This document shows, piece by piece, positions 10,871 through 20,326 of a DNA stretch of 24,510 nucleotides. The notes below the pieces were generated by a model. The model searched no databases. It was not told the origin of the DNA and saw only the letters and a list, made by a program, of their open reading frames with translations. The stretch covers positions 1-24,510 of the IMG/VR virus record IMGVR_UViG_3300029997_000040; one strand, written 5' to 3'. Every line of letters begins with the position of its first letter. The stretch's first letter is position 1. Origin of the DNA: a virus (taxonomy: Duplodnaviria > Caudoviricetes). The position numbers were made by a program, and so were the translations under genes.

Positions 10871-11101
10871 ATGCAGGATGTTCGTTGTTCGCGCTGCGCG
10901 AAGTTGCTCGCGCGCGCCCGTGTTTTTGATGTCATCGAAATCAAGTGCCCGCGCTGCGGGACGATCAATTCGTTGAGGGCCGTATCGAGTCCCCTGCCAG
11001 CGAGCCAGGGAGCACCGAACGGAAACACTCATGACGCACACGACTCTTCCCTACACGATCCATCGCGGCGACGCGCTGCAGGTGTTACGCGGCCTGGCTG
11101 A
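10871..11101 (+). CDS. com: Mu Com-family zinc-finger regulator
   Basis: MQDVRCSRCAKLLA...IEIKCPRCGTIN has two CxxC motifs; overlaps the downstream methyltransferase. Confidence 0.85.
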   Translation: MQDVRCSRCAKLLARARVFDVIEIKCPRCGTINSLRAVSSPLPASQGAPNGNTHDAHDSSLHDPSRRRAAGVTRPG

Positions 11102-11771
11102 TGCCAGCGTCGATGCGGTCATCACCGACCCGCCGTATTGCTCCGGTGGCCAGACCATGGCCGCCCGCGCACGGCCGACCGGCGAGAAGTACATCAACAG
11201 CAACACCAAGGCGCCGCTGCCCGACTTCGAAGGCGACTTCCGCGACCAGCGTGGGTTTCTGGCATGGGCCAGCCAGTGGCTGGCCGAGTGTCATCGCGTG
11301 ACGAAACCCGGTGGCCACCTTCTCGCGTTCATCGACTGGCGCATGTTGCCGACGATGACCGATGCGGTGCAGGTGGCCGGCTGGGTTTGGCAGGGCATCG
11401 TGGTGTGGGACAAAACCGGCGGATGCCGTCCGCAGCGCGGTCGGTTTCGTAGCCAGGCCGAATACGTGGTGTGGGCCAGCCGCGGGCCGATCGATACGAA
11501 GGCGCACCCGGTGGTGCTGCCGGGTGTTTTACCCGTGCATCCGCAGCTCGGTGGCAAGCAGCATCAGGTCGGCAAGCCAGAATCGTTGATGGAAAAGCTG
11601 GTGGCGATCGTGAAGCCGAACAGCACGGTGCTCGATCCCTTTATGGGTAGCGCCACCACGGGCGTTGCCGCGCTGCGCGCGGGCCAGCGGTTTGTGGGCG
11701 TGGAGATGTCGGAGGGGTATTTCGGGGTGGCCGAGGAACGATTGCGAGCCTGTGTCATGTCACAGGCATAG
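11031..11771 (+). CDS. Orphan N6-adenine/N4-cytosine DNA methyltransferase (beta class), 246 aa
   Basis: Motif IV (TDPPY) precedes motif I (VLDPFMGSATTG); HQVGKP motif present. Confidence 0.93.
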   Translation: MTHTTLPYTIHRGDALQVLRGLADASVDAVITDPPYCSGGQTMAARARPTGEKYINSNTKAPLPDFEGDFRDQRGFLAWASQWLAECHRVTKPGGHLLAFIDWRMLPTMTDAVQVAGWVWQGIVVWDKTGGCRPQRGRFRSQAEYVVWASRGPIDTKAHPVVLPGVLPVHPQLGGKQHQVGKPESLMEKLVAIVKPNSTVLDPFMGSATTGVAALRAGQRFVGVEMSEGYFGVAEERLRACVMSQA

Positions 11772-11863
11772 GAGACCGTTACCAGAGGTTGGGTTCATCA
11801 GCGCTGATCGCGCCGTCGGCATTGATACAGCCTGCGTTTTTGCTACCGGCGAACCATCCCATC

Positions 11864-11892
11864 ACTCGCGGATGGCTGCTGCATCCGCGAGT
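11864..11892. terminator. Hairpin between convergent genes, probable terminator
   Basis: ACTCGCGGATG / CATCCGCGAGT is a perfect 11-bp stem with a 7-nt loop; only a short CTTT tail on +. Confidence 0.6.
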
Positions 11893-11909
11893 CTTTCAGT
11901 GGCAGGATG

Positions 11910-12419
11910 CTACTGGCCGCTGGCGCCGCACGGCGGACAATCTAGAGCCGTTACTGCCGGTGCTAACACCGGCGTTGTCGATATCTTGGCGGTGGCCGTC
12001 CATACGGTACTGCCATCGCTTTGATAGCGAGCTGTCAGTTGCACCGCACTGTCCTGATAGACCGTGATGGCCGGCGCCGTGCTGTTGACGGCCGCTGCCA
12101 GCGGACGTCCCGGTATGGACACGCGTTGCGCATCGGCACCCAGCGGCAGCACGAGGAAATAGCCGCTCTGCGTCGCCACCGTCACGCGTACCGTGCCAAC
12201 AAGATCGTTGGCCTGAATATACTTGACCCCGTCCTGCACGAAGACGTAGACACGCCAGCCGGGTGCCGCACTGACATTTTTCGCCTGCGGCCATGACTGT
12301 CCGAACCCCGACTGCTGCTGGCTTACCCCAGTCTGCTGCTGCGCCATGGCGGGCAGCGCCACGATGCCGGCGATCAACCCCGCCAGCAAGGGTATACGCA
12401 ATACTTTGTGTCGAATCAT
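11910..12419 (-). CDS. Secreted hypothetical protein (Sec signal ending AMA), 169 aa
   Basis: Basic N-terminus, hydrophobic core and AxA site; GAGGTG SD; core GQSWP...WRVYVF..DGVKYIQ.ND; ends CPPCGASGQ. Confidence 0.85.
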   Translation of the reverse strand: MIRHKVLRIPLLAGLIAGIVALPAMAQQQTGVSQQQSGFGQSWPQAKNVSAAPGWRVYVFVQDGVKYIQANDLVGTVRVTVATQSGYFLVLPLGADAQRVSIPGRPLAAAVNSTAPAITVYQDSAVQLTARYQSDGSTVWTATAKISTTPVLAPAVTALDCPPCGASGQ

Positions 12420-12504
12420 GATGTCACCTCTGTTTATTTATTCGTTGAAGTACCAAACGCCTTTCATCCAGCCGTGACCGATGCATGCAGTCACATGGCC
12501 AGTG

Positions 12505-14211
12505 TTATGCGGCGTATACCGCGCGTCGAGCTTTGTTTGCGGGGTATCCAACGTCGAGGTTGCCGTCCGGCGCATCCAGCAACGACACGCTAATGCGTTG
12601 ACGACGCTTGTTGGAACGCAGCCTGCCTTGGTAAAGGCTGGCCCGATCTCGCATGCCGGCAAGATCCAAGCCCATGGCGCCAAGTCGGGACAGCAGCAGG
12701 TGGCTGCTCTTGGGTAACGCGATCAATAGGGGGGGCGCCGTGGGTGGCTCGGGTTCGCCGGCCACGATCAGCATCGTCCAGGGGATGTTGCGCTTCGGTC
12801 CCACCATCACTACCCGTACGTAGAGACGGATACATGGCGTGGCGGGCGATTGCATCAGCGTATAGGCCACCGCTTCGCAGGCCAGCCGGTAGAGCGTCCA
12901 CTGCGCGCCCGGCGTTAGCAGGTTGACCCGCTCCGACACGTGGCCATCGAAGACGATGCCACATTCTTCCAGAGTTTCAGCGATCGCGCCGCTCCAGAGC
13001 GCTATAGGCAAGCCCAGACGCGGCCACTGCCACGGCGATGGAAGAAAACTTTCGTGCACCGTGGCCGTGAAGCGCTGGACCAGAAGCTGCAGCGTACGGA
13101 AGTAATGCAGCTCATTTTCCGGAAGGACGTCGCGGACGCGTTCGAGCAGGCGGCCGTAACCCTCCTTGATGTAGTCATGGGCCTGTCCCTGCATCTCCAT
13201 GCCACGACGCAGCCGCAGCTCGCCCTGATAGATTTCGTGGCGCGCCGCTTGCCGGATCTGCACATGGTCGGTAGCCAGCTGCCGCTCCTGCTCATTGAGC
13301 CAGTTGATCTTCGCGCCCAGCGGCAGCAAGACCGTGAGAAAAATGGCCATAAAGTTCTGCGCGTTGATGACGCCTGGGTCGTACTGCGCCGGCATGCTCA
13401 GCATGATGCCGATGCTGGCGGCGGTGCCGCCTACCGCGGCGCCCTGCCAACCATAGCGCACAGCCATCCACGCCACCGGCAGAAACAGGGCCATGCGTGC
13501 ACCTTGGCGCCACATGTCACCCGCCATGCCCGCGCCCATCGCCGTCAGCAATCCGACGCACGCCAGTCCGAGTACCACGCCTTCGAGCAATAGACGGCTG
13601 CGGCCCATCTGCCGAGCCAGGTCAGACCATGATTCAGACTGGCGAATGGCCTGGTGGATGGCCAGCGCCAGCGGTACCACCGTCAGGCAGCCGAGATAGT
13701 TTCCCAATAAATAGCGCGGCGCCCATAGCCGGATCAGGGCCGGGGCATTCTGTCCGGGCAGGAATGTCAGAGAGTATTGCCATGTGCCGTCGGCTGCTGT
13801 GAGCAATGCAAAGGCGAAGATGCAGCTCAGCAAAGCCACCATATGCTTGGCCGTGATCGATTCGAGTACCCGCTTGCCGGACACCGTGCCAGGCAGATGC
13901 GCACGCAGCGGCCATGTCGCCCACATGGCAAAAGCCGATATCGGAATCAGATGTAACAATGATCCGCTCCAGCCGTACTGGTCGAAACACGCATACGCGC
14001 CTGGGATCAATGCCACGACATTGGCGACCAGTAACGCCGGCCAGAAACGGCGAGGCAGCAGCAAGACACCGCCGAGCCAGATGCCGGCCTGGGGCATCCA
14101 GTGGGCGAAATAGGCCAACGAAACGCTGCGCACCAGCAGGTACGCGCCGCCAAACGCCACAGCAATCACTAGCTGCTGCAGCCAAGGCGTAAGCCCTATC
14201 CTCTTGAGCAT
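12505..14211 (-). CDS. MASE1-domain membrane sensor with degenerate NarX/UhpB-like kinase tail
   Basis: Multi-TM N-terminus with W.P.G, PRRFWP, GNYLG and RYGWQG MASE1 motifs; tail has LYRLACEA and GLDLAGMRDRA; GGAG SD before the ATG at 14211. Confidence 0.85.
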   Translation of the reverse strand: MLKRIGLTPWLQQLVIAVAFGGAYLLVRSVSLAYFAHWMPQAGIWLGGVLLLPRRFWPALLVANVVALIPGAYACFDQYGWSGSLLHLIPISAFAMWATWPLRAHLPGTVSGKRVLESITAKHMVALLSCIFAFALLTAADGTWQYSLTFLPGQNAPALIRLWAPRYLLGNYLGCLTVVPLALAIHQAIRQSESWSDLARQMGRSRLLLEGVVLGLACVGLLTAMGAGMAGDMWRQGARMALFLPVAWMAVRYGWQGAAVGGTAASIGIMLSMPAQYDPGVINAQNFMAIFLTVLLPLGAKINWLNEQERQLATDHVQIRQAARHEIYQGELRLRRGMEMQGQAHDYIKEGYGRLLERVRDVLPENELHYFRTLQLLVQRFTATVHESFLPSPWQWPRLGLPIALWSGAIAETLEECGIVFDGHVSERVNLLTPGAQWTLYRLACEAVAYTLMQSPATPCIRLYVRVVMVGPKRNIPWTMLIVAGEPEPPTAPPLLIALPKSSHLLLSRLGAMGLDLAGMRDRASLYQGRLRSNKRRQRISVSLLDAPDGNLDVGYPANKARRAVYAA

Positions 14212-14382
14212 GACGGTCTCCACTCCCTGAGTTGAACTGGTTATGCACCGGCCGTTCCATCAGCATGCGCTGAAAGTCCGTAAACGTCGTCATACCCCAG
14301 CACTTTAACTACATGGCGGCCTCTCTCCGTGTCAATGAGAAATAGTCTTAGTGCGATGCATGCGCGGCTTTCTACGCGAGGG

Positions 14383-15246
14383 TTACCTCGATGCGGGCTT
14401 TGGGGGCGGCCGATAGCACAGCGTTTCCTGGTCAGGGACGCTCGATGCTTTCTCGGTCACCTTAGTTTCAAGAGACTCTAGATCGGCTATCGATATCGCT
14501 TCGATTCGCTGCACCGCCGTACGCTGGATGACAAGTGTCGCGCCGTCACGGATCAAAGCGCAAAAATCGGACCCGCACAGGAGAAGCCGTGCTGTCGGGG
14601 ACGCTTGCTTATCGAACTCGACACGCTTATCCCCTGCAAAACTTACCAGTGGACTTGTCTTGGCAATGGCTTGGCACTCTTCCTTCGCCTCTTGCTGGCC
14701 AAGTGCTATCCATGGAAGGACGAAGGTGGTCAGCAAAGCGGCAAGAACCATTATGAAAATACCGATAAATACAGGCGCGGTCAGTAACCACGTGGTCAAT
14801 GCAACGAAATACTTCGCACGCAAAGGTGGTTTGGGTGTGACGTATTGACGTCGCTTCACCCATCGATGAAATCGCCGAAACCCTCTCCGTATGGCTTCAG
14901 ATCCCGCCAAGAATCTGAGAAGGAGTCCTATGACTAGAACCGGTGCAATGGCATAAAGGTAGCGTGGATAATTTCTTAGAAAATGAGAACCGGCAGTACC
15001 GATGAGACGTGCATAGCTGTTCAATGCAAACCAATAGGCATCAGCAGCCGATATCGGAAATTGCGACGCATTGATACCGAATACATCGAGGTAGCTTTCG
15101 CGGTACATCCGTCCTTGACCATAGAAGGTCGCGAGTGCCATGGAGAACAAGGGCACTGTCAGCCACCATTTCGGCGGCTTCGGTGGCCATAATTTTTTCC
15201 GCTCGTCTGCCTTGCCTGAATAAGTTGTTGTGCCGCGTTCTGTCAT
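14383..15246 (-). CDS. Hypothetical membrane protein, 287 aa
   Basis: About three hydrophobic segments and a Cys-containing C-terminal domain; GAGG SD; visibly lower GC than the phage core. Confidence 0.75.
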   Translation of the reverse strand: MTERGTTTYSGKADERKKLWPPKPPKWWLTVPLFSMALATFYGQGRMYRESYLDVFGINASQFPISAADAYWFALNSYARLIGTAGSHFLRNYPRYLYAIAPVLVIGLLLRFLAGSEAIRRGFRRFHRWVKRRQYVTPKPPLRAKYFVALTTWLLTAPVFIGIFIMVLAALLTTFVLPWIALGQQEAKEECQAIAKTSPLVSFAGDKRVEFDKQASPTARLLLCGSDFCALIRDGATLVIQRTAVQRIEAISIADLESLETKVTEKASSVPDQETLCYRPPPKPASR

Positions 15247-15304
15247 GTCGTTCCTCGACTAGGCTGACGCCCTGGAGTCAATCCAAGACGGGGTTTCCCT
15301 TCGA

Positions 15305-15931
15305 TCAATGCTTCGCGTTGGTGAGCTTCGTCTTGACGCCCGATTCGAGCAGAATGTATTCGCCCTTGCTCCCCCAGCGAGGCGATTGCGCGTCGAGCTT
15401 CATACACGGGCGACCACCGCAGGACGTTACGCCGACTTGGGCATACGCGGCTGCGGTATCGGCATCGACTTGCGCCGCCGCTGTTTGTGCGCGCGCATCG
15501 TCGTAGGCTTGCCTTTGAAGCCACAGCAGGAAGCTGCCACCGAGAATGAGCAAAATCATCGCCCCGACAATGGCCGCGTAGCCAGCCAAAATCTTGCGGT
15601 GCGCCGATGTTGAAACCGTCAGCGCGGCTTGCTGGAAAGCGCTTCCTGCAGCTTCCAACTTGGCGGTGGTCGTTGCGACCGCCTGATCGTATGTCTTGGC
15701 GCCTTGGCTCAGCGCCGAAGTCACACCGTGTTGGGCCGACTGCGCCACTTGGGTTCCCGAGCGATGCACCATCTGGCTGACATCGTTGCGCACGGCGGCA
15801 ATGGTGTCTTGCAGCACATGCCCGGCTTTTTGTTGTTCTTGTATCGCCTCGGCAGACCGCTGTTCAAGTACCTGGACCAGCAGGGTGAGTTGCTTGGTCG
15901 TTTCGATGAGAGCCGACAATTCGCTGTTCAT
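15305..15931 (-). CDS. Coiled-coil single-TM protein resembling Xanthomonadales 'relaxation protein' hypotheticals, 208 aa
   Basis: GGAGG SD before the ATG at 15931; helical N-terminus, one TM, C-terminal CGGRPC...GEY. Confidence 0.75.
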   Translation of the reverse strand: MNSELSALIETTKQLTLLVQVLEQRSAEAIQEQQKAGHVLQDTIAAVRNDVSQMVHRSGTQVAQSAQHGVTSALSQGAKTYDQAVATTTAKLEAAGSAFQQAALTVSTSAHRKILAGYAAIVGAMILLILGGSFLLWLQRQAYDDARAQTAAAQVDADTAAAYAQVGVTSCGGRPCMKLDAQSPRWGSKGEYILLESGVKTKLTNAKH

Positions 15932-16054
15932 GTATCCCTCCATAGATCGATAAATCGTTGAATCGGTTTTCGCAGCAGCACCCACTTCTTGTTCAGCCTG
16001 CAAGGCTAAGGTAGATTCAAGTCGACACCATTGACAAGATAGAGGGATAGTTTC

Positions 16055-17083
16055 ATGGACGAGACCGTAAAGAGCGATCCGATTTATACCGACAAGGACA
16101 GCTTTGGACCGAATGAGCGCCTGCAGCTGTCACGCGTCGAACAGCACAAGCTTACGCGCCATTTTGCGGCCTCCGATGTATTTGCCCGATGCTTGATCGC
16201 GCTGGCATGCACCACGTCATTCATCAGTCCCTGCATGGCGGCCGATGCGCCAGCACTGCAAGCGCCGGTACCCGAGGAAGTCCAAGCATTGGTGCCGGCT
16301 GGCATGAAGCTCATCTATTTCAGAGCCGATAACGGTCGAACCGAAGGATCAGATGCTGTCGCGATTTTGGATCATACGAACAAACCGGCTGATCCCAACA
16401 TGAGCACCGGGCCGCGGCCGTTGATCATGCTGCGCAAGACGGGCGGCGTCTATAAGGAGGAGGCACGCAATGACCATGTCATCGCTTGCTCGAGTTGCGG
16501 CGAGGATATGGACGATCCATTTACGCCAGGAGGCATCGAGCTGACTCCGAACCATCTTGTCATCGAACAGGATCATGGCTCAGCTTCTTCGGCTGTTTAC
16601 AAATTCGTGCGCGATCCGAAGAGCGAACAATGGATAGTTACGAGCGCTGTAAACACTCTTGCCAAACAATCTCTGACAGGGGGTGGATTTAACAAAACGC
16701 CCACTCGATTGAAATTGCCTACCCCGCCCTTGCTGACTAATTTCGACCCCGGTTGGCGGACGCCGCAGTTTTGGAAGGCGGTGGTGGTAAACGATAAAAC
16801 GCATGATTTTTCATTCGTTGGCAATCAGTCTGATGAGAAAGCCTTGGATGAAAGCGTTAAAGATGAATGTCAGAAAAGTGGCATATGTCACGTCTTAGTA
16901 AAGCAGCTTAACGGGTGCGTGGCCTTGGTCAAAGATCAGTCCGGGAGTTTTTATGGAGGATCATCTAGTGCCAAAGGAAATGCAGAGAAAGAGGCAAAGA
17001 CCAATGCTTTAAACGAATGCAAGAGCCGTGGCGCTGGTTCATGCGAAGCCGTTAGAAGCGATTGCAGTCAGAATTCCGAATAA
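16055..17083 (+). CDS. Probable periplasmic immunity protein with C-terminal DUF4189-like domain
   Basis: Signal-like segment (CLIALACTTSFISPCMAA); RND.VI.CSSCG...DPF domain; Cys-patterned tail (EC...C...NGCVALV...ALNEC....C....C); directly upstream of the effector; start uncertain. Confidence 0.7.
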   Translation: MDETVKSDPIYTDKDSFGPNERLQLSRVEQHKLTRHFAASDVFARCLIALACTTSFISPCMAADAPALQAPVPEEVQALVPAGMKLIYFRADNGRTEGSDAVAILDHTNKPADPNMSTGPRPLIMLRKTGGVYKEEARNDHVIACSSCGEDMDDPFTPGGIELTPNHLVIEQDHGSASSAVYKFVRDPKSEQWIVTSAVNTLAKQSLTGGGFNKTPTRLKLPTPPLLTNFDPGWRTPQFWKAVVVNDKTHDFSFVGNQSDEKALDESVKDECQKSGICHVLVKQLNGCVALVKDQSGSFYGGSSSAKGNAEKEAKTNALNECKSRGAGSCEAVRSDCSQNSE

Positions 17084-17133
17084 TATAAAGGTATCTATTC
17101 ACTTTTGATTCTTCAAAAATAGGACACTTTGAA

Positions 17134-18303
17134 ATGGTAGACGACGTTGATAGTCAAGGAAATAAGACGATATCCAAGCTGGTAGCCACGGACGATAAGA
17201 CGCGCACCTATGAACTGTCTGACAATACTTATGAAGAACGGGTTAACGGCTCTGCGTCATGGAGACATAATAATCCCGGAAATTTGAAGATGGAATATGC
17301 ACATAGTGCAGATCCAACAGTTCACTCTCATCGAAGCAAAGAAGATGCATTAGCTAGTGCAGTATCTAAATATCCGGGAACGGTTGATTTAGATCAACGC
17401 GGAAATGTGATATTTGATAGTTATGATCACGGGCGAGATGCTCAGATCAAATTTATCAAGAAAGATGGCGATGGTAAAACGGTGGCTCAAATGCTTGGCG
17501 ATTATTCCAAGCCAGATTATTCCGGGCCAACACATCATCAAGCGCAAGAAGCCACTATTTACGCCGTCGGCGATAAAGCGGGTGTTGATCTACGAACCAA
17601 AACAATTGACAAGATGAGCGATGCAGAAATAAGCGCGCTTGCTGATGGAATTAGCAAATTTGAAGGTTATACCAAAGGTCAGACCAACGCTCTGACTCCC
17701 GAACAAGCAGCTGAACGTCAGACGCGGGCGCAGCAAGGCATACACGACGCCCCCGCTCACGACGCTGGTCATCCTCATACGCTCAAACATGGCGACAAGG
17801 GCGCAGAAGTAGGCGCTGTCCAGCAACAGTTGCACGACCTGGGTTACCACGATTCACGAGGTAACCTGATCGGCGTGGACAATCATTTCGGCCCTACAAC
17901 CGAAGCGGCGGTGAAGGCTTTTCAAACCGATCACGGACTCAAGCCAGACGGCGTGGCCGGACCGGCCACCCAGCAGCAACTGCATTCCGCTGCGCAGAGC
18001 AACCAACTCAACGATCCAGGCATCTCGTCATCGCTCACACAAAAGCTGGATCAGCCCGGCGTAAAAACCGGCGACCCCCACATGGATAAGCTACTGGCGA
18101 GCATGAACGATCCCGTGGCTTTCAAGCAGGCCATGACGGATCTGAGCAGCTCGCCATACGGTCAAGCCTTTCATGCAGAAGGGCGTGCGCAGCATGCAGA
18201 GATGCAAAACCAGCAGGTGCAAGCCCAAGTGACTCAGCAACAAGTCCAGCAACAGGCGCAGCCTCAACCTCAAGTCCAGACTGGGCCCGTGATGACGCGC
18301 TAG
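17134..18303 (+). CDS. Probable T4SS antibacterial effector: lysozyme-like NNPGNL domain, PG-binding domain, helical/Q-rich C-terminus, 389 aa
   Basis: SWRHNNPGNLK; LKHGDKGAEV..QQQL..LGY..FGPTTEAAVKAFQ..GLKPDGVAGPAT; ends QQQVQQQAQPQPQVQTGPVMTR; no signal peptide. Confidence 0.75.
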   Translation: MVDDVDSQGNKTISKLVATDDKTRTYELSDNTYEERVNGSASWRHNNPGNLKMEYAHSADPTVHSHRSKEDALASAVSKYPGTVDLDQRGNVIFDSYDHGRDAQIKFIKKDGDGKTVAQMLGDYSKPDYSGPTHHQAQEATIYAVGDKAGVDLRTKTIDKMSDAEISALADGISKFEGYTKGQTNALTPEQAAERQTRAQQGIHDAPAHDAGHPHTLKHGDKGAEVGAVQQQLHDLGYHDSRGNLIGVDNHFGPTTEAAVKAFQTDHGLKPDGVAGPATQQQLHSAAQSNQLNDPGISSSLTQKLDQPGVKTGDPHMDKLLASMNDPVAFKQAMTDLSSSPYGQAFHAEGRAQHAEMQNQQVQAQVTQQQVQQQAQPQPQVQTGPVMTR

Positions 18304-18339
18304 GCAGGTACCGGAGCCACGGGTCCGTCTATTAGGTAG

Positions 18340-18733
18340 TTAGCCACTTTAGGAGAGTTCGCTGTGGAGTCGAATAAAACCTTTGCGGTATGCATCGACG
18401 AGATAAGGCAGAACTTCGTCTTTGGGGACACATTTTCTGGTAGTTACATCAAATCCGTAACGATGTCAGATGGGTCTTTGCGTGAGATCGCTCTTAGCCC
18501 CATGATGAAAAATGGCGATCTTGTCGTGGAGCTCAAGGACGGGAAGCACGTAAGCTACATGGGACCAAACGGCACTACGACAAATGGCAAGCTCATGGTT
18601 AGTCTTACAGAGATAGACGTGCTCACCAACGAGTCCGCGTCATCCTCTCAGTGACTCAGCTGCGCCGAGAGCGCTCACGGGTGGCTAACAAATCGTCCAA
18701 GGCGGACGGCTTCGCCGTTACTTAACTCCTATG
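18340..18733 (+). mobile_element. Integron gene cassette 1 (complete)
   Basis: Begins G/TTAGCCAC (18339-18347), carries one ORF, ends in an attC whose left end GTGGCTAAC (18681-18689) is the exact reverse complement. Confidence 0.85.
18364..18654 (+). CDS. Hypothetical cassette protein, 96 aa
   Basis: GTG start with AGGAG SD at 18351-18355; fills cassette 1. Confidence 0.75.
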   Translation: MESNKTFAVCIDEIRQNFVFGDTFSGSYIKSVTMSDGSLREIALSPMMKNGDLVVELKDGKHVSYMGPNGTTTNGKLMVSLTEIDVLTNESASSSQ

Positions 18734-18739
18734 TTAGCG
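18683..18739 (+). repeat. attC: attC site (short, about 57 bp, Xanthomonas XCR/aadA-like)
   Basis: R'' GGCTAAC, 5 nt, L'' GTCCAAG, central ACGGC-TTC-GCCGT hairpin, L' CTTAAC, 6 nt, R' GTTAGCG. Confidence 0.85.
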
Positions 18740-19328
18740 CTCATATGAACTATCAAAACCGCTTAAAGGGAGCAGTCACACAATCACTTGTGCGCTCACT
18801 TTTCGCTCAAGCCGGGTTGACCATCGTGCCACTTGGTATTGAGGAGACGATTCGGGAGGTCGCTGAGCTCCCGCTAACTAAATACCTAGGCTTGAACCTT
18901 CCTCTAGCACTTCGTAAGTTGCCTGACTTTTTTGCTACTGATAGAGATAGGACTACGCACTGGCTTGTAGAAGTGAAGTACCGGCGTGAATGGAACGATG
19001 CAACTCGGGACGAACTTGAACAATCTTTGAGCGAGCAAGTCTCTACTTGGAGCCCATTAGTTGTATTCATCTTTGTCGGAGAGACGCCCTCTCGATTTGT
19101 CCAGCCAAGCTCTTGGGTTCGAGCCGCCCAGGTCAAGATGGACAACGGGACTCTAAAGTTCAAACATTGTGAAAACGGCACGTACGTGCCGTGGAGCCAA
19201 GCCAATTTCATCAATCTTCAGCGCGTCCAAGATGTATTCCCTCAACTCAATAACTCTGAATTGTGGGCGTCGTCTGCGCTCGACTTGACCATCGAGATTT
19301 CTCGTGGTCTAACTCGGATATGAGCGCT
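18734..19328 (+). mobile_element. Integron gene cassette 2 with attC truncated at R''
   Basis: Starts G/TTAGCGCTCAT; ATGAGCGCT at 19320-19328 (spanning the stop) is the expected complement, but AAC and the rest of the attC are missing. Confidence 0.65.
18745..19323 (+). CDS. PD-(D/E)XK superfamily nuclease-like protein, 192 aa
   Basis: KG....Q/E helix, then LPDFF and LVEVKYR; lower GC; ATG 12 nt after the core GTT. Confidence 0.75.
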   Translation: MNYQNRLKGAVTQSLVRSLFAQAGLTIVPLGIEETIREVAELPLTKYLGLNLPLALRKLPDFFATDRDRTTHWLVEVKYRREWNDATRDELEQSLSEQVSTWSPLVVFIFVGETPSRFVQPSSWVRAAQVKMDNGTLKFKHCENGTYVPWSQANFINLQRVQDVFPQLNNSELWASSALDLTIEISRGLTRI

Positions 19329-19388
19329 CATGTCGAGAGGTCGCCGTATACCGAAGTCTAGTCATCGTCGTTCGCGAACCGTGGCTAC

Positions 19389-19847
19389 CTACCGGCTGAG
19401 CTGATCAATCAGCACATCGCGGATCATGTCGCGGTCACCGGCAGCGAAACCGAGCAGGCGTCGACGCGGATAACGTACACGCGGGCCATGCTTCACCACG
19501 CGATCCCCGCCACCCTCCTGGTGCACGCTCGCGATTTGCCCGGCCCGGCCGGTGAACTCGACGCTGGCGATGGCATCGGTCGCCTTGGCCTTGAGGTATT
19601 TGGCGGTGCGCAATTTGGTAAACATGGCGTCGCGCTTAATACGGCCTTGTTTGCCACGCAGCTTTTTCCGTGCCTTGCGTGGTACGAACGCAGCGCCATC
19701 GGGATTCCTCTGCGCCGCGATGCGCTGCTGCTGGCTGTGACGCAATGCGCGGCTGATGGTCAGGGCGATCGCGCGTCGGCTGGCCGGTGCGAGCTTGAGT
19801 AGCAGGCCGGCGGCCCAGTCCTCGAGCAGGACGAGATCGTCGCTCAT
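19389..19847 (-). CDS. S: Tail completion / virion morphogenesis protein GpS
   Basis: QQQRIAAQRNPDG..F.PRK, MFTKLR, VHQEG, YPRRRLLGF; ATGA overlap with R. Confidence 0.93.
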   Translation of the reverse strand: MSDDLVLLEDWAAGLLLKLAPASRRAIALTISRALRHSQQQRIAAQRNPDGAAFVPRKARKKLRGKQGRIKRDAMFTKLRTAKYLKAKATDAIASVEFTGRAGQIASVHQEGGGDRVVKHGPRVRYPRRRLLGFAAGDRDMIRDVLIDQLSR

Positions 19848-20326
19848 GCCGGTGGCACGTCCCAGCGTGCGATCAACTGCTCGCGCAGGTAGACCTCCCA
19901 ATGCTCGGCGGTGAGCTTGGCCTCGGGTTGCGGCTCGTCGGCGATGCTGATGTCTAATTTGCCGCTGCCAAGGTCCTTGACGATGACGCGCTCGGTGAGT
20001 TGCAGCTTGATGCTGAGGTCGACCTTGTCGTGGTCGATGATGTCGGCCTCATAGGTGATGCCGCTTTGGCGCTTGTCGACGTTGTCGAGCAGCTCGGACT
20101 GGTGGACACGCAGCCAGATCAGGATAGCCACCCATACGACGAGCGGATCACCGGCGAAGTCGGTGAGGATCAGGTTGAGCGTGTACGCAGTTTCATAGCT
20201 AAGGCCGGGCGCGTAGGTGCTGTGCAGAGCGCCGGCGTCGATGAAGACCAGTAACCGCTCGGGATCGCGAGCGAGATCCGGCAGCGCGGCCACGAGGGCG
20301 GCGCGCAGGCTGGCGGGTTTCTTCAT
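19844..20326 (-). CDS. R: Tail completion protein GpR, 160 aa
   Basis: MKKPASLRAAL, LVFIDAG, DLSIKLQLTERVIV. Confidence 0.94.
   Translation of the reverse strand: MKKPASLRAALVAALPDLARDPERLLVFIDAGALHSTYAPGLSYETAYTLNLILTDFAGDPLVVWVAILIWLRVHQSELLDNVDKRQSGITYEADIIDHDKVDLSIKLQLTERVIVKDLGSGKLDISIADEPQPEAKLTAEHWEVYLREQLIARWDVPPA

What the first reader, a model, noticed from the sequence alone, without database searches (positions are those of the whole stretch)
16055..18303. Prophage-borne T4SS-type immunity/effector pair
Seen: a Cys-rich exported protein with a DUF4189-like tail, immediately followed by a protein with no signal peptide and the architecture NNPGNL domain, PG-binding domain, short helical domain, Gln-rich tail. 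Known: the immunity-then-effector order, PG-binding domains and Q-rich C-termini typify the bactericidal Xanthomonadales X-T4SS (X-Tfi/X-Tfe). Inference: the phage supplies lysogens with a cell-wall toxin for the host T4SS, letting them kill non-lysogenic kin. No T4SS machinery is in the window.
Basis: partly seen in the sequence, partly recalled or inferred. Interest (0 to 1): 0.82.

Follow-up and report, generated by a model that had tools for sequence, protein, structure and literature searches.

The report
Phage toxin with new secretion tag
A prophage carries a likely cell-wall toxin and its likely antidote; the toxin lacks the usual export tag and ends instead in a short helical tag, found on many unrelated toxins, whose genes travel with a membrane-protein gene that some bacteria keep inside their killing-machine locus, which likely marks a second route for loading toxins onto that machine.

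Summary
The two genes are real, and the pair is of the Xanthomonadales T4SS kind. ORF2's N-domain folds like the Enc34 muramidase (Z 8.8). ORF1 homologs sit directly upstream of it in 22 of 25 bacterial loci, where the toxin usually ends in XVIPCD. Here it does not. ORF2 ends in an unrelated ~55-residue helical hairpin plus a Q-rich tail, found on GH19, M23, NlpC/P60, Tle1, lipase and calpain-like toxins. Its homologs lie next to hairpin toxins or, in one clade of 12 genomes, between virB7 and virD4 of the X-T4SS locus. Those 12 genomes have few or no XVIPCD effectors but many scattered hairpin effectors. Best reading, inferred and untested: the hairpin is a second substrate signal and the membrane protein is its adaptor to VirD4. 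The phage would then carry toxin, immunity and adaptor in a variable cargo slot. Killing of non-lysogenic kin is doubtful, because X. citri blocks fratricide at the delivery step. The host's T4SS could not be checked.

The parts
15305..15931 (-). 'Relaxation protein' family gene (208 aa from ATG 15931): long N-terminal helix, one predicted TM segment (~aa 114-138), small C-terminal domain with two invariant Cys; candidate adaptor
   Evidence: TM and topology inferred from sequence
16055..16153 (+). 33-codon remnant of a calpain-like effector start, fused in frame to ORF1 (scar of a cassette swap, inferred)
   Evidence: 15/33 and 14/26 identities, pairwise E 6e-8 and 3e-8; intact calpain-hairpin genes hold this position in L003, L004, L005
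16055..17083 (+). ORF1, likely cognate immunity protein: signal-like stretch aa 46-60, ~170-aa domain with CxxC, C-terminal DUF4189 (16772-17065)
17164..17694 (+). ORF2 toxic domain (WRxNNPGN ... invariant E177), predicted Enc34/PHA02564-like glycoside hydrolase fold
17800..17982 (+). ORF2 peptidoglycan-binding domain PF01471
18055..18222 (+). ORF2 C-terminal helical hairpin, shared with unrelated toxins; candidate secretion signal
18223..18303 (+). Q-rich tail with a basic/hydrophobic end, as described for X-Tfe tails
11754..19388 (.). Variable, low-GC cargo slot of the P2-like prophage, between the DNA methylase/gpJ and gpS

Best explanation
The prophage carries a three-gene module that likely encodes a cell-wall toxin (ORF2), its periplasmic antidote (ORF1) and a membrane adaptor (15305-15931) that would load the toxin onto the host's bacteria-killing type IV secretion system through a helical C-terminal tag in place of XVIPCD. 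Shown here: the gene layout, the domain swap, the wide sharing of the tag, and the genomic linkage of tag, adaptor gene and virD4. Predicted: the muramidase-like fold with Glu177 as the catalytic residue. Inferred: the adaptor's cytoplasmic helix binds the tag and hands the substrate to VirD4; the Q-rich basic tail serves translocation as in X-Tfes; ORF1 protects mainly against the cell's own toxin; and the lysogen gains a new weapon against other species or strains. The module probably arose when an XVIPCD-type immunity-toxin cassette recombined into an adaptor-calpain islet, keeping the islet's first 33 codons and its tag.
For: Toxin: the N-domain model matches Enc34 endolysin 7q47 (Z 8.8, rmsd 2.6, 108 aligned), an enzyme shown to be muralytic. 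14 of 28 homologs with the motif carry PF20410, and 20 of 25 genomic ORFs with it match an XVIPCD profile. Immunity: an ORF1 homolog lies directly upstream in 22 of 25 loci and in 0 of 127 other loci. Tag: 60 cluster representatives at E<=0.001. Of the 43 scanned, 22 carry hydrolase-type domains (12 calpain-like, 2 GH19, 2 lipase, 2 M91, 1 each Tle1, NlpC/P60, VgrG3-like lysozyme, phage lysozyme), none XVIPCD and none a relaxase. This repertoire overlaps the published X-Tfe one. Adaptor linkage: the gene is adjacent in 8 of 8 first-found bacterial tag loci. Among 61 relatives of G495, 26 of 28 adaptor matches lie directly upstream of virD4 (12) or beside a tag effector (14), with a profile that held none of these loci. 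The gene order virD4-adaptor | virB7-8-9-11-1-2-4 holds in 4 of 4 loci read. Of the 12 virD4-linked genomes, 8 have no XVIPCD match and 4 have 1-3 weak ones, but 11 have tag matches. 28 of 30 examined are C-terminal, and 19 of these lack their own adaptor gene within 1.5 kb. All 4 XVIPCD effectors beside an adaptor gene also carry the tag, against 0 of 25 motif ORFs from loci where the adaptor search found none. 13 of 15 adaptor-positive genomes have XVIPCD against 37 of 301 overall.
Against: No secretion, toxicity or binding experiment exists. The 12 virD4-linked adaptors form one clade (100/100), so they count as one event. The 13-of-15 test ignores kinship. G142 has an adaptor and a tag effector but no VirD4 was found. 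G583 has the adaptor beside virD4 but no tag match. 4 of 26 adaptor matches in the order-wide sample have no such neighbour and 2 are ambiguous. The broad tag profile was built partly from adaptor neighbours, so one search is circular, and it gave 2 GlnE false positives in 30. The fold match is moderate: Foldseek E 0.023 and no sequence match to 7q47. E177 = Glu131 rests only on the ends of the aligned ranges. ORF1's signal sits behind 45 residues and may export poorly. The host and its T4SS are unknown.
Confidence: 0.55

Rival explanations
1. The hairpin is a T4SS signal that binds VirD4 directly. The neighbouring membrane protein does something else for the machine or the effector (chaperone, VirD4 regulator, exclusion factor).
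For: All the linkage data fit equally well. The partner has a conserved, predicted periplasmic Cys domain that a pure cytoplasmic adaptor would not need.
Against: Tag effectors carry their own copy in genomes with ordinary X-T4SSs but are mostly solitary where a copy sits beside virD4. Tag similarity tracks the cytoplasmic half of the partner more than the rest (rho 0.68 against 0.34; linked inheritance confounds this).
Confidence: 0.2
2. One reading: lysogens use the pair to kill non-lysogenic kin through the host T4SS.
For: None of the 8 sister prophage loci that span the slot carries the pair, so kin would lack the immunity gene. The host's own fratricide block is unknown.
Against: [quoted passage not shown]
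Confidence: 0.12
3. The module is not secreted, or is inert: an orphan toxin-antitoxin-like 'atypical T4E' pair, or decaying cargo after a clumsy swap.
For: XVIPCD is absent. XVIPCD-less toxic pairs are described. ORF1 starts with a foreign 33-codon remnant. G142 lacks a detected VirD4.
Against: All three ORFs are intact, and a 76%-identical homolog keeps the same toxin-tag fusion (P0002). A periplasm-acting enzyme without a signal peptide needs an exporter. The tag is tied to virD4 loci.
Confidence: 0.1
4. ORF2 is a phage lysis or virion enzyme.
For: The fold match is to a phage endolysin, and the nearest Atlas clusters by features include viral ones.
Against: The phage has its own holins and endolysin. 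The gene lies on the opposite strand to the late operon in a low-GC variable slot, is absent from sister prophages, and its homologs are bacterial T4SS effectors.
Confidence: 0.03

Closest known systems
X-Tfi/X-Tfe pairs of the Xanthomonadales X-T4SS, e.g. XAC2610/XAC2609 (PMC6536674, PMC8740702, PMC10933484)
   Same: Immunity-then-effector order, lysozyme-type domain plus PG-binding domain, Q-rich tail with a basic/hydrophobic end; direct homologs of this pair end in XVIPCD.
   Different: No XVIPCD; an unrelated helical hairpin instead; a dedicated membrane-protein gene alongside; prophage location.
'Atypical T4Es' Le1637 and XAC2247 (PMC10989847)
   Same: Toxin-immunity pairs homologous to T4SS effectors but without XVIPCD.
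   Different: The passages read describe no shared C-terminal domain, adaptor or secretion route ('adaptor', 'relaxation' and 'chaperone' occur 0 times). Its Table S1 was not seen.
Trans-intoxication protection factors, Tpf/XAC2611, DUF4189 (bioRxiv 10.64898/2026.05.09.723464)
   Same: ORF1 ends in a six-Cys DUF4189 domain and is predicted to be periplasmic.
   Different: ORF1 is 342 aa with an extra ~170-aa domain and is tied to one toxin family rather than to virB6.
Phage Enc34 endolysin, PHA02564 family, PDB 7q47 (PMC8943055)
   Same: Predicted fold of ORF2 aa 38-180; invariant Glu near the end of the last core helix.
   Different: 19% identity; an added N-terminal beta-hairpins region; PG-binding domain and secretion tag instead of a TM tail.
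T4SS coupling adaptors: F TraM, Legionella DotM/IcmSW-LvgA (passages in PMC8740702); R1162/RSF1010 MobB (recalled; only search listings seen)
   Same: Proposed role: a small partner that brings a substrate signal to the coupling protein.
   Different: No homology shown (NCBIfam TraM E 0.043, far below cut-off); the substrates here are antibacterial toxins.

Membership tests
X-Tfe (canonical) | C-terminal XVIPCD folded region that binds VirD4 | tested here: not met
   No PF20410 hit; HHalign 0.1%, E 0.54; model all-helical there
X-Tfe (canonical) | Q/A-rich tail whose last six residues hold Arg, no acidic residue, and hydrophobic/small residues | tested here: met
   Rule; the window tail fits; 78 of 91 tag proteins have Arg and 83 of 91 lack D/E there
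X-Tfe (canonical) | No signal peptide; N-terminal antibacterial domain | tested here: met
   (activity predicted, not measured)
X-Tfe (canonical) | X-T4SS in the same genome and VirD4-dependent delivery | not testable with these tools
   Only the 24.5 kb virus record is held; 5 of 5 genomes with the closest islets have VirD4 and XVIPCD effectors
X-Tfi | Upstream, co-oriented, cognate-specific gene | tested here: met
   22 of 25 against 0 of 127 loci
X-Tfi | Periplasmic location | tested here: inconclusive
   Hydrophobic stretch at aa 46-60 behind a foreign remnant
X-Tfi | Binds and neutralises the effector | not tested
Tpf (XAC2611-like) | DUF4189 with six Cys | tested here: met
Tpf (XAC2611-like) | Small stand-alone protein in or near the vir locus, mostly downstream of virB6 | tested here: not met
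   342 aa, two domains, beside an effector
Tpf (XAC2611-like) | Binds VirB5 | not tested
   Host VirB5 unknown
PHA02564 / Enc34-type glycoside hydrolase | Helical core fold | tested here: met
   Z 8.8, rmsd 2.6, 108 aligned, the best match for that domain among 48,161 chains; moderate
PHA02564 / Enc34-type glycoside hydrolase | Glu131/Trp79/Tyr95 signature | tested here: inconclusive
   E177 is invariant and lies at the matching offset from the range end; no residue-level alignment was seen
MobB/TraM-type adaptor | Sequence or fold homology | tested here: inconclusive
   Only sub-threshold or generic coiled-coil matches

The most novel reading that the evidence does not exclude
Bacteria-killing T4SSs have a second, unrecognised substrate class: toxins tagged by a short helical hairpin and recruited by a dedicated membrane adaptor, currently misnamed 'relaxation protein'. 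One lineage has built the adaptor into its vir locus and largely dropped XVIPCD. Elsewhere toxin, immunity and adaptor travel as a plug-in that even a phage can deliver.
Probability: 0.5. Interest if true: 0.87.

Novelty: new variant of a known kind. Interest (0 to 1): 0.74.

Why it matters
X-T4SS effectors are found by searching for XVIPCD, described as required for secretion. If the hairpin is a second signal, a whole class of effectors has been missed, and T4SS loci without XVIPCD partners are explained. It also names a candidate for the 'unidentified adapter proteins' that Oka et al. 2022 left open, and it is directly testable with one deletion and a reporter fusion. The same data assign a new toxin family (Enc34-like fold) and its immunity family to this system. 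They also show a temperate phage carrying the complete plug-in.

Tried and rejected
Complex prediction of the adaptor's cytoplasmic part (aa 1-113, two copies) with the hairpin gave no verdict: score 0.16 against a mark of 0.32, controls not folded. It is counted neither way. Hairpin as a degenerate XVIPCD: rejected. Hairpin as a relaxase signal: no relaxase among the 43 of 60 carriers scanned; the 17 not scanned were mostly short fragments. The adaptor had no match in plasmids or phages, no Pfam family, and only generic coiled-coil fold matches with Z under 8; PDB sequence searches were uninformative. PHROGs and NCBIfam found only the PG-binding domain in ORF2 and nothing in ORF1. Viral scans returned only identical copies of this locus, and the metagenome scan only identical or near-identical ones. 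The order-wide hairpin tally (21 of 301) is not used, because the profile held seeds from those genomes and many hits are near E 0.001. One wrong-frame row in alignment A7 was dropped. The Enc34 sequence was not obtained, so there is no residue-level alignment. Earlier-findings look-ups by sequence and by words returned nothing.

Full report
OBSERVATION. The window is part of a P2-like prophage: capsid, terminase, holins, endolysin, tail completion, baseplate, sheath, tube and tape measure are all on the minus strand. Between gpS (19389-19901) and the methylase/gpJ end lies a low-GC cargo slot. Of 15 viral loci found with gpS, two are identical copies and one is an identical fragment that stops short of the slot. 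The other 12 lack the pair, and 8 of these span the slot. ORF1 (16055-17083) has DUF4189 at aa 240-337; ORF2 (17134-18303) has NNPGNL at aa 46 and PG_binding_1 at aa 223-283.

THE TOXIN DOMAIN. An AlphaFold2 model (28-row alignment, mean pLDDT 80.9) matches, for aa 38-180, the catalytic domain of phage Enc34 endolysin (7q47; Z 8.8, rmsd 2.6, 108 aligned, 19% identity). Foldseek gives the same entry at E 0.023. That enzyme degrades Gram-negative peptidoglycan and uses Glu131 (PMC8943055, parts 1-2 of 5 and passages read). W43, R44, N46-G49, D128 and E177 are invariant in 28 and 22 aligned homologs. E177 sits three residues before the end of the aligned range, as Glu131 does; that equivalence is inferred. 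No sequence match to the PDB was found.

THE PAIR IS OF X-T4SS ORIGIN. 14 of 28 database homologs with the motif carry PF20410, in Luteibacter and Lysobacter among others. In 301 genomes of the family of G001 (Rhodanobacteraceae), 19 have the domain, at 25 distinct loci. An ORF1 homolog lies directly upstream in 22 of 25, and in none of 127 other loci held. Of 25 motif-bearing ORFs from those loci (one locus counted twice, one fragment not included), 20 match an XVIPCD profile strongly. So ORF1 is very likely the cognate immunity gene. Its DUF4189 tail is the domain of the fratricide blocker XAC2611 (preprint abstract and sections 5 and 12 read), but ORF1 has an extra domain and a different position.

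THE TAG IS NOT XVIPCD. XVIPCD is a folded region that binds VirD4 plus a Q-rich tail that ends basic and hydrophobic; both are needed for delivery (PMC8740702, passages). ORF2 has the tail but not the folded region. Its aa 308-363 form a predicted helical hairpin. This hairpin was found in 32 proteins and in 60 representatives at 50% clustering. I scanned 43 of the 60: 12 calpain-like, 2 GH19, 2 lipase, 2 M91, 2 RTX-repeat, 1 each of Tle1, NlpC/P60, VgrG3-like lysozyme and phage lysozyme, 4 with a PG-binding domain only, 15 with no family, and none with XVIPCD or a relaxase. The published X-Tfe repertoire lists CysPc, GH19, Lipase3, DUF2235, NLPC_P60 and M23 (PMC6536674, section 13 and passages). 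In stored proteins the hairpin ends a median 16 residues from the C-terminus, and the profile hits none of 17 XVIPCD proteins and none of 120 adaptor homologs.

THE THIRD GENE. The divergent gene 15305-15931 belongs to a family labelled 'relaxation protein'. It is one long helix with a predicted TM segment and a small two-Cys domain. It is adjacent to the hairpin gene in 8 of 8 bacterial loci first found, typically as adaptor | calpain-hairpin + small exported gene, at different chromosomal sites. The first 33 codons of ORF1 resemble the start of those calpain genes. I infer that the immunity-toxin cassette replaced the body of a calpain gene and kept its start and its tag. In 301 genomes drawn across the order, 26 adaptor matches in 15 genomes divide as follows: 15 beside a hairpin effector (all later used as profile seeds; the nine divergent tails first chosen by eye match the original family at HHalign 95.9%, E 5e-9), 2 ambiguous, 4 beside XVIPCD effectors that also carry the hairpin, 1 directly upstream of virD4, and 4 without such a neighbour. 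13 of the 15 genomes have XVIPCD effectors, against 37 of 301 overall (Fisher p 1.5e-11, kinship ignored).

LINK TO THE MACHINE. In G495 the adaptor gene lies between virB7 and virD4. Among 61 genomes related to G495, 28 matches divide into 12 upstream of virD4, 14 beside hairpin effectors and 2 fragments. Four loci read in full show the X-T4SS order, and these VirD4s are 54-67% identical to the five closer-type VirD4s of XVIPCD-rich genomes against 37-44% to two others. Of the 12 genomes, 8 have no XVIPCD match and 4 have one to three weak ones; five Rhodanobacteraceae genomes have 4 to 20 each. Eleven of the 12 have hairpin matches, 49 in all. Of the 30 examined, 28 are C-terminal and 2 are GlnE false positives. 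The 28 include lysozyme, GH19, M23, SLT, VgrG3-like and Tle1 proteins, and 19 have no adaptor gene within 1.5 kb. This is the pattern expected if one adaptor in the vir locus serves scattered substrates, while portable islets bring their own. Against: the 12 adaptors are one clade, G583 has no hairpin match, G142 has no detected VirD4, and the loci are too short to see a divergent adaptor upstream of long effectors.

MECHANISM. Shown: layout, domain swap, sharing of the tag, and linkage. Predicted: a glycoside-hydrolase fold. Inferred: the adaptor binds the hairpin and presents the toxin to VirD4, the tail drives translocation, the toxin cuts prey peptidoglycan, and ORF1 guards the producer (confidence 0.55). 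The main rival is direct VirD4 binding with another role for the partner (0.2). Killing of non-lysogenic kin is less likely (0.12): X. citri immunity proteins are not absolutely required against sister cells (PMC10933484, abstract only), and XAC2611 blocks sibling delivery. The host is probably a Rhodanobacteraceae member, since the nearest named adaptor and tag relatives are, but its genome is not held.

NOVELTY. XVIPCD-less 'atypical T4Es' are in print (PMC10989847, passages), and an AlphaFold 3 screen lists non-XVIPCD VirD4 partners (bioRxiv 10.64898/2026.08.23.746524, passages). In the passages read, neither describes a shared tag or an adaptor. Searches for 'relaxation protein' with Xanthomonas and type IV secretion, XVIPCD with adaptor, XVIPCD with DUF4189, X-T4SS effectors lacking XVIPCD, Luteimonas with virD4, prophage-borne T4SS effectors, and all XVIPCD papers since 2022 gave no listing that describes this module; most hits were seen as listings only. 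Subscription papers are missing from the library. I did not read supplements (Table S1 of PMC10989847, datasets of PMC8740702, the preprints' tables), which may list some of these proteins. The MobB analogy is recalled. Verdict: a new variant of a known kind, interest 0.74.

Noticed in passing
My comparison agrees only that the slot varies and that five sister loci keep a stub of the 192-aa gene. The toxin gene ends 35 nt before it.
   Followed up: partly
window 11910-14223 (-): A MASE1 sensor-like gene (572 aa) and a 169-aa predicted exported gene, both host-like cargo in the same slot.
   Followed up: no
window 14383-15246 (-): A 287-aa membrane protein of no family; a 34%-identical homolog lies in the cargo of sister prophage L090.
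   Followed up: no
window 11031-11771 (+): An N6/N4 DNA methylase on the strand opposite the tail genes, at the edge of the slot and shared by seven sister loci.
   Followed up: no
proteins P0003-P0006, P0008, P0013, P0017, P0019; L016: The same toxic domain with a third kind of C-terminus that matches neither PF20410 nor, for the five tested, the hairpin; by eye XVIPCD-like but shortened. P0034 and P0037 have yet another short tail.
   Followed up: no
L047, L049, L057, L062: Effectors with the hairpin followed by a divergent XVIPCD, each beside an adaptor gene: possibly dual-signal substrates.
   Followed up: partly
L022 2974-3525, L025 726-208, L026 2917-3309: Further ORF1-like genes lie downstream of the effector in tandem effector arrays.
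   Followed up: no
G142; L053, L054: An adaptor with a Tle1-hairpin effector in a genome with no detected VirD4, and two adaptor-like genes with no effector neighbour; unexplained.
   Followed up: partly
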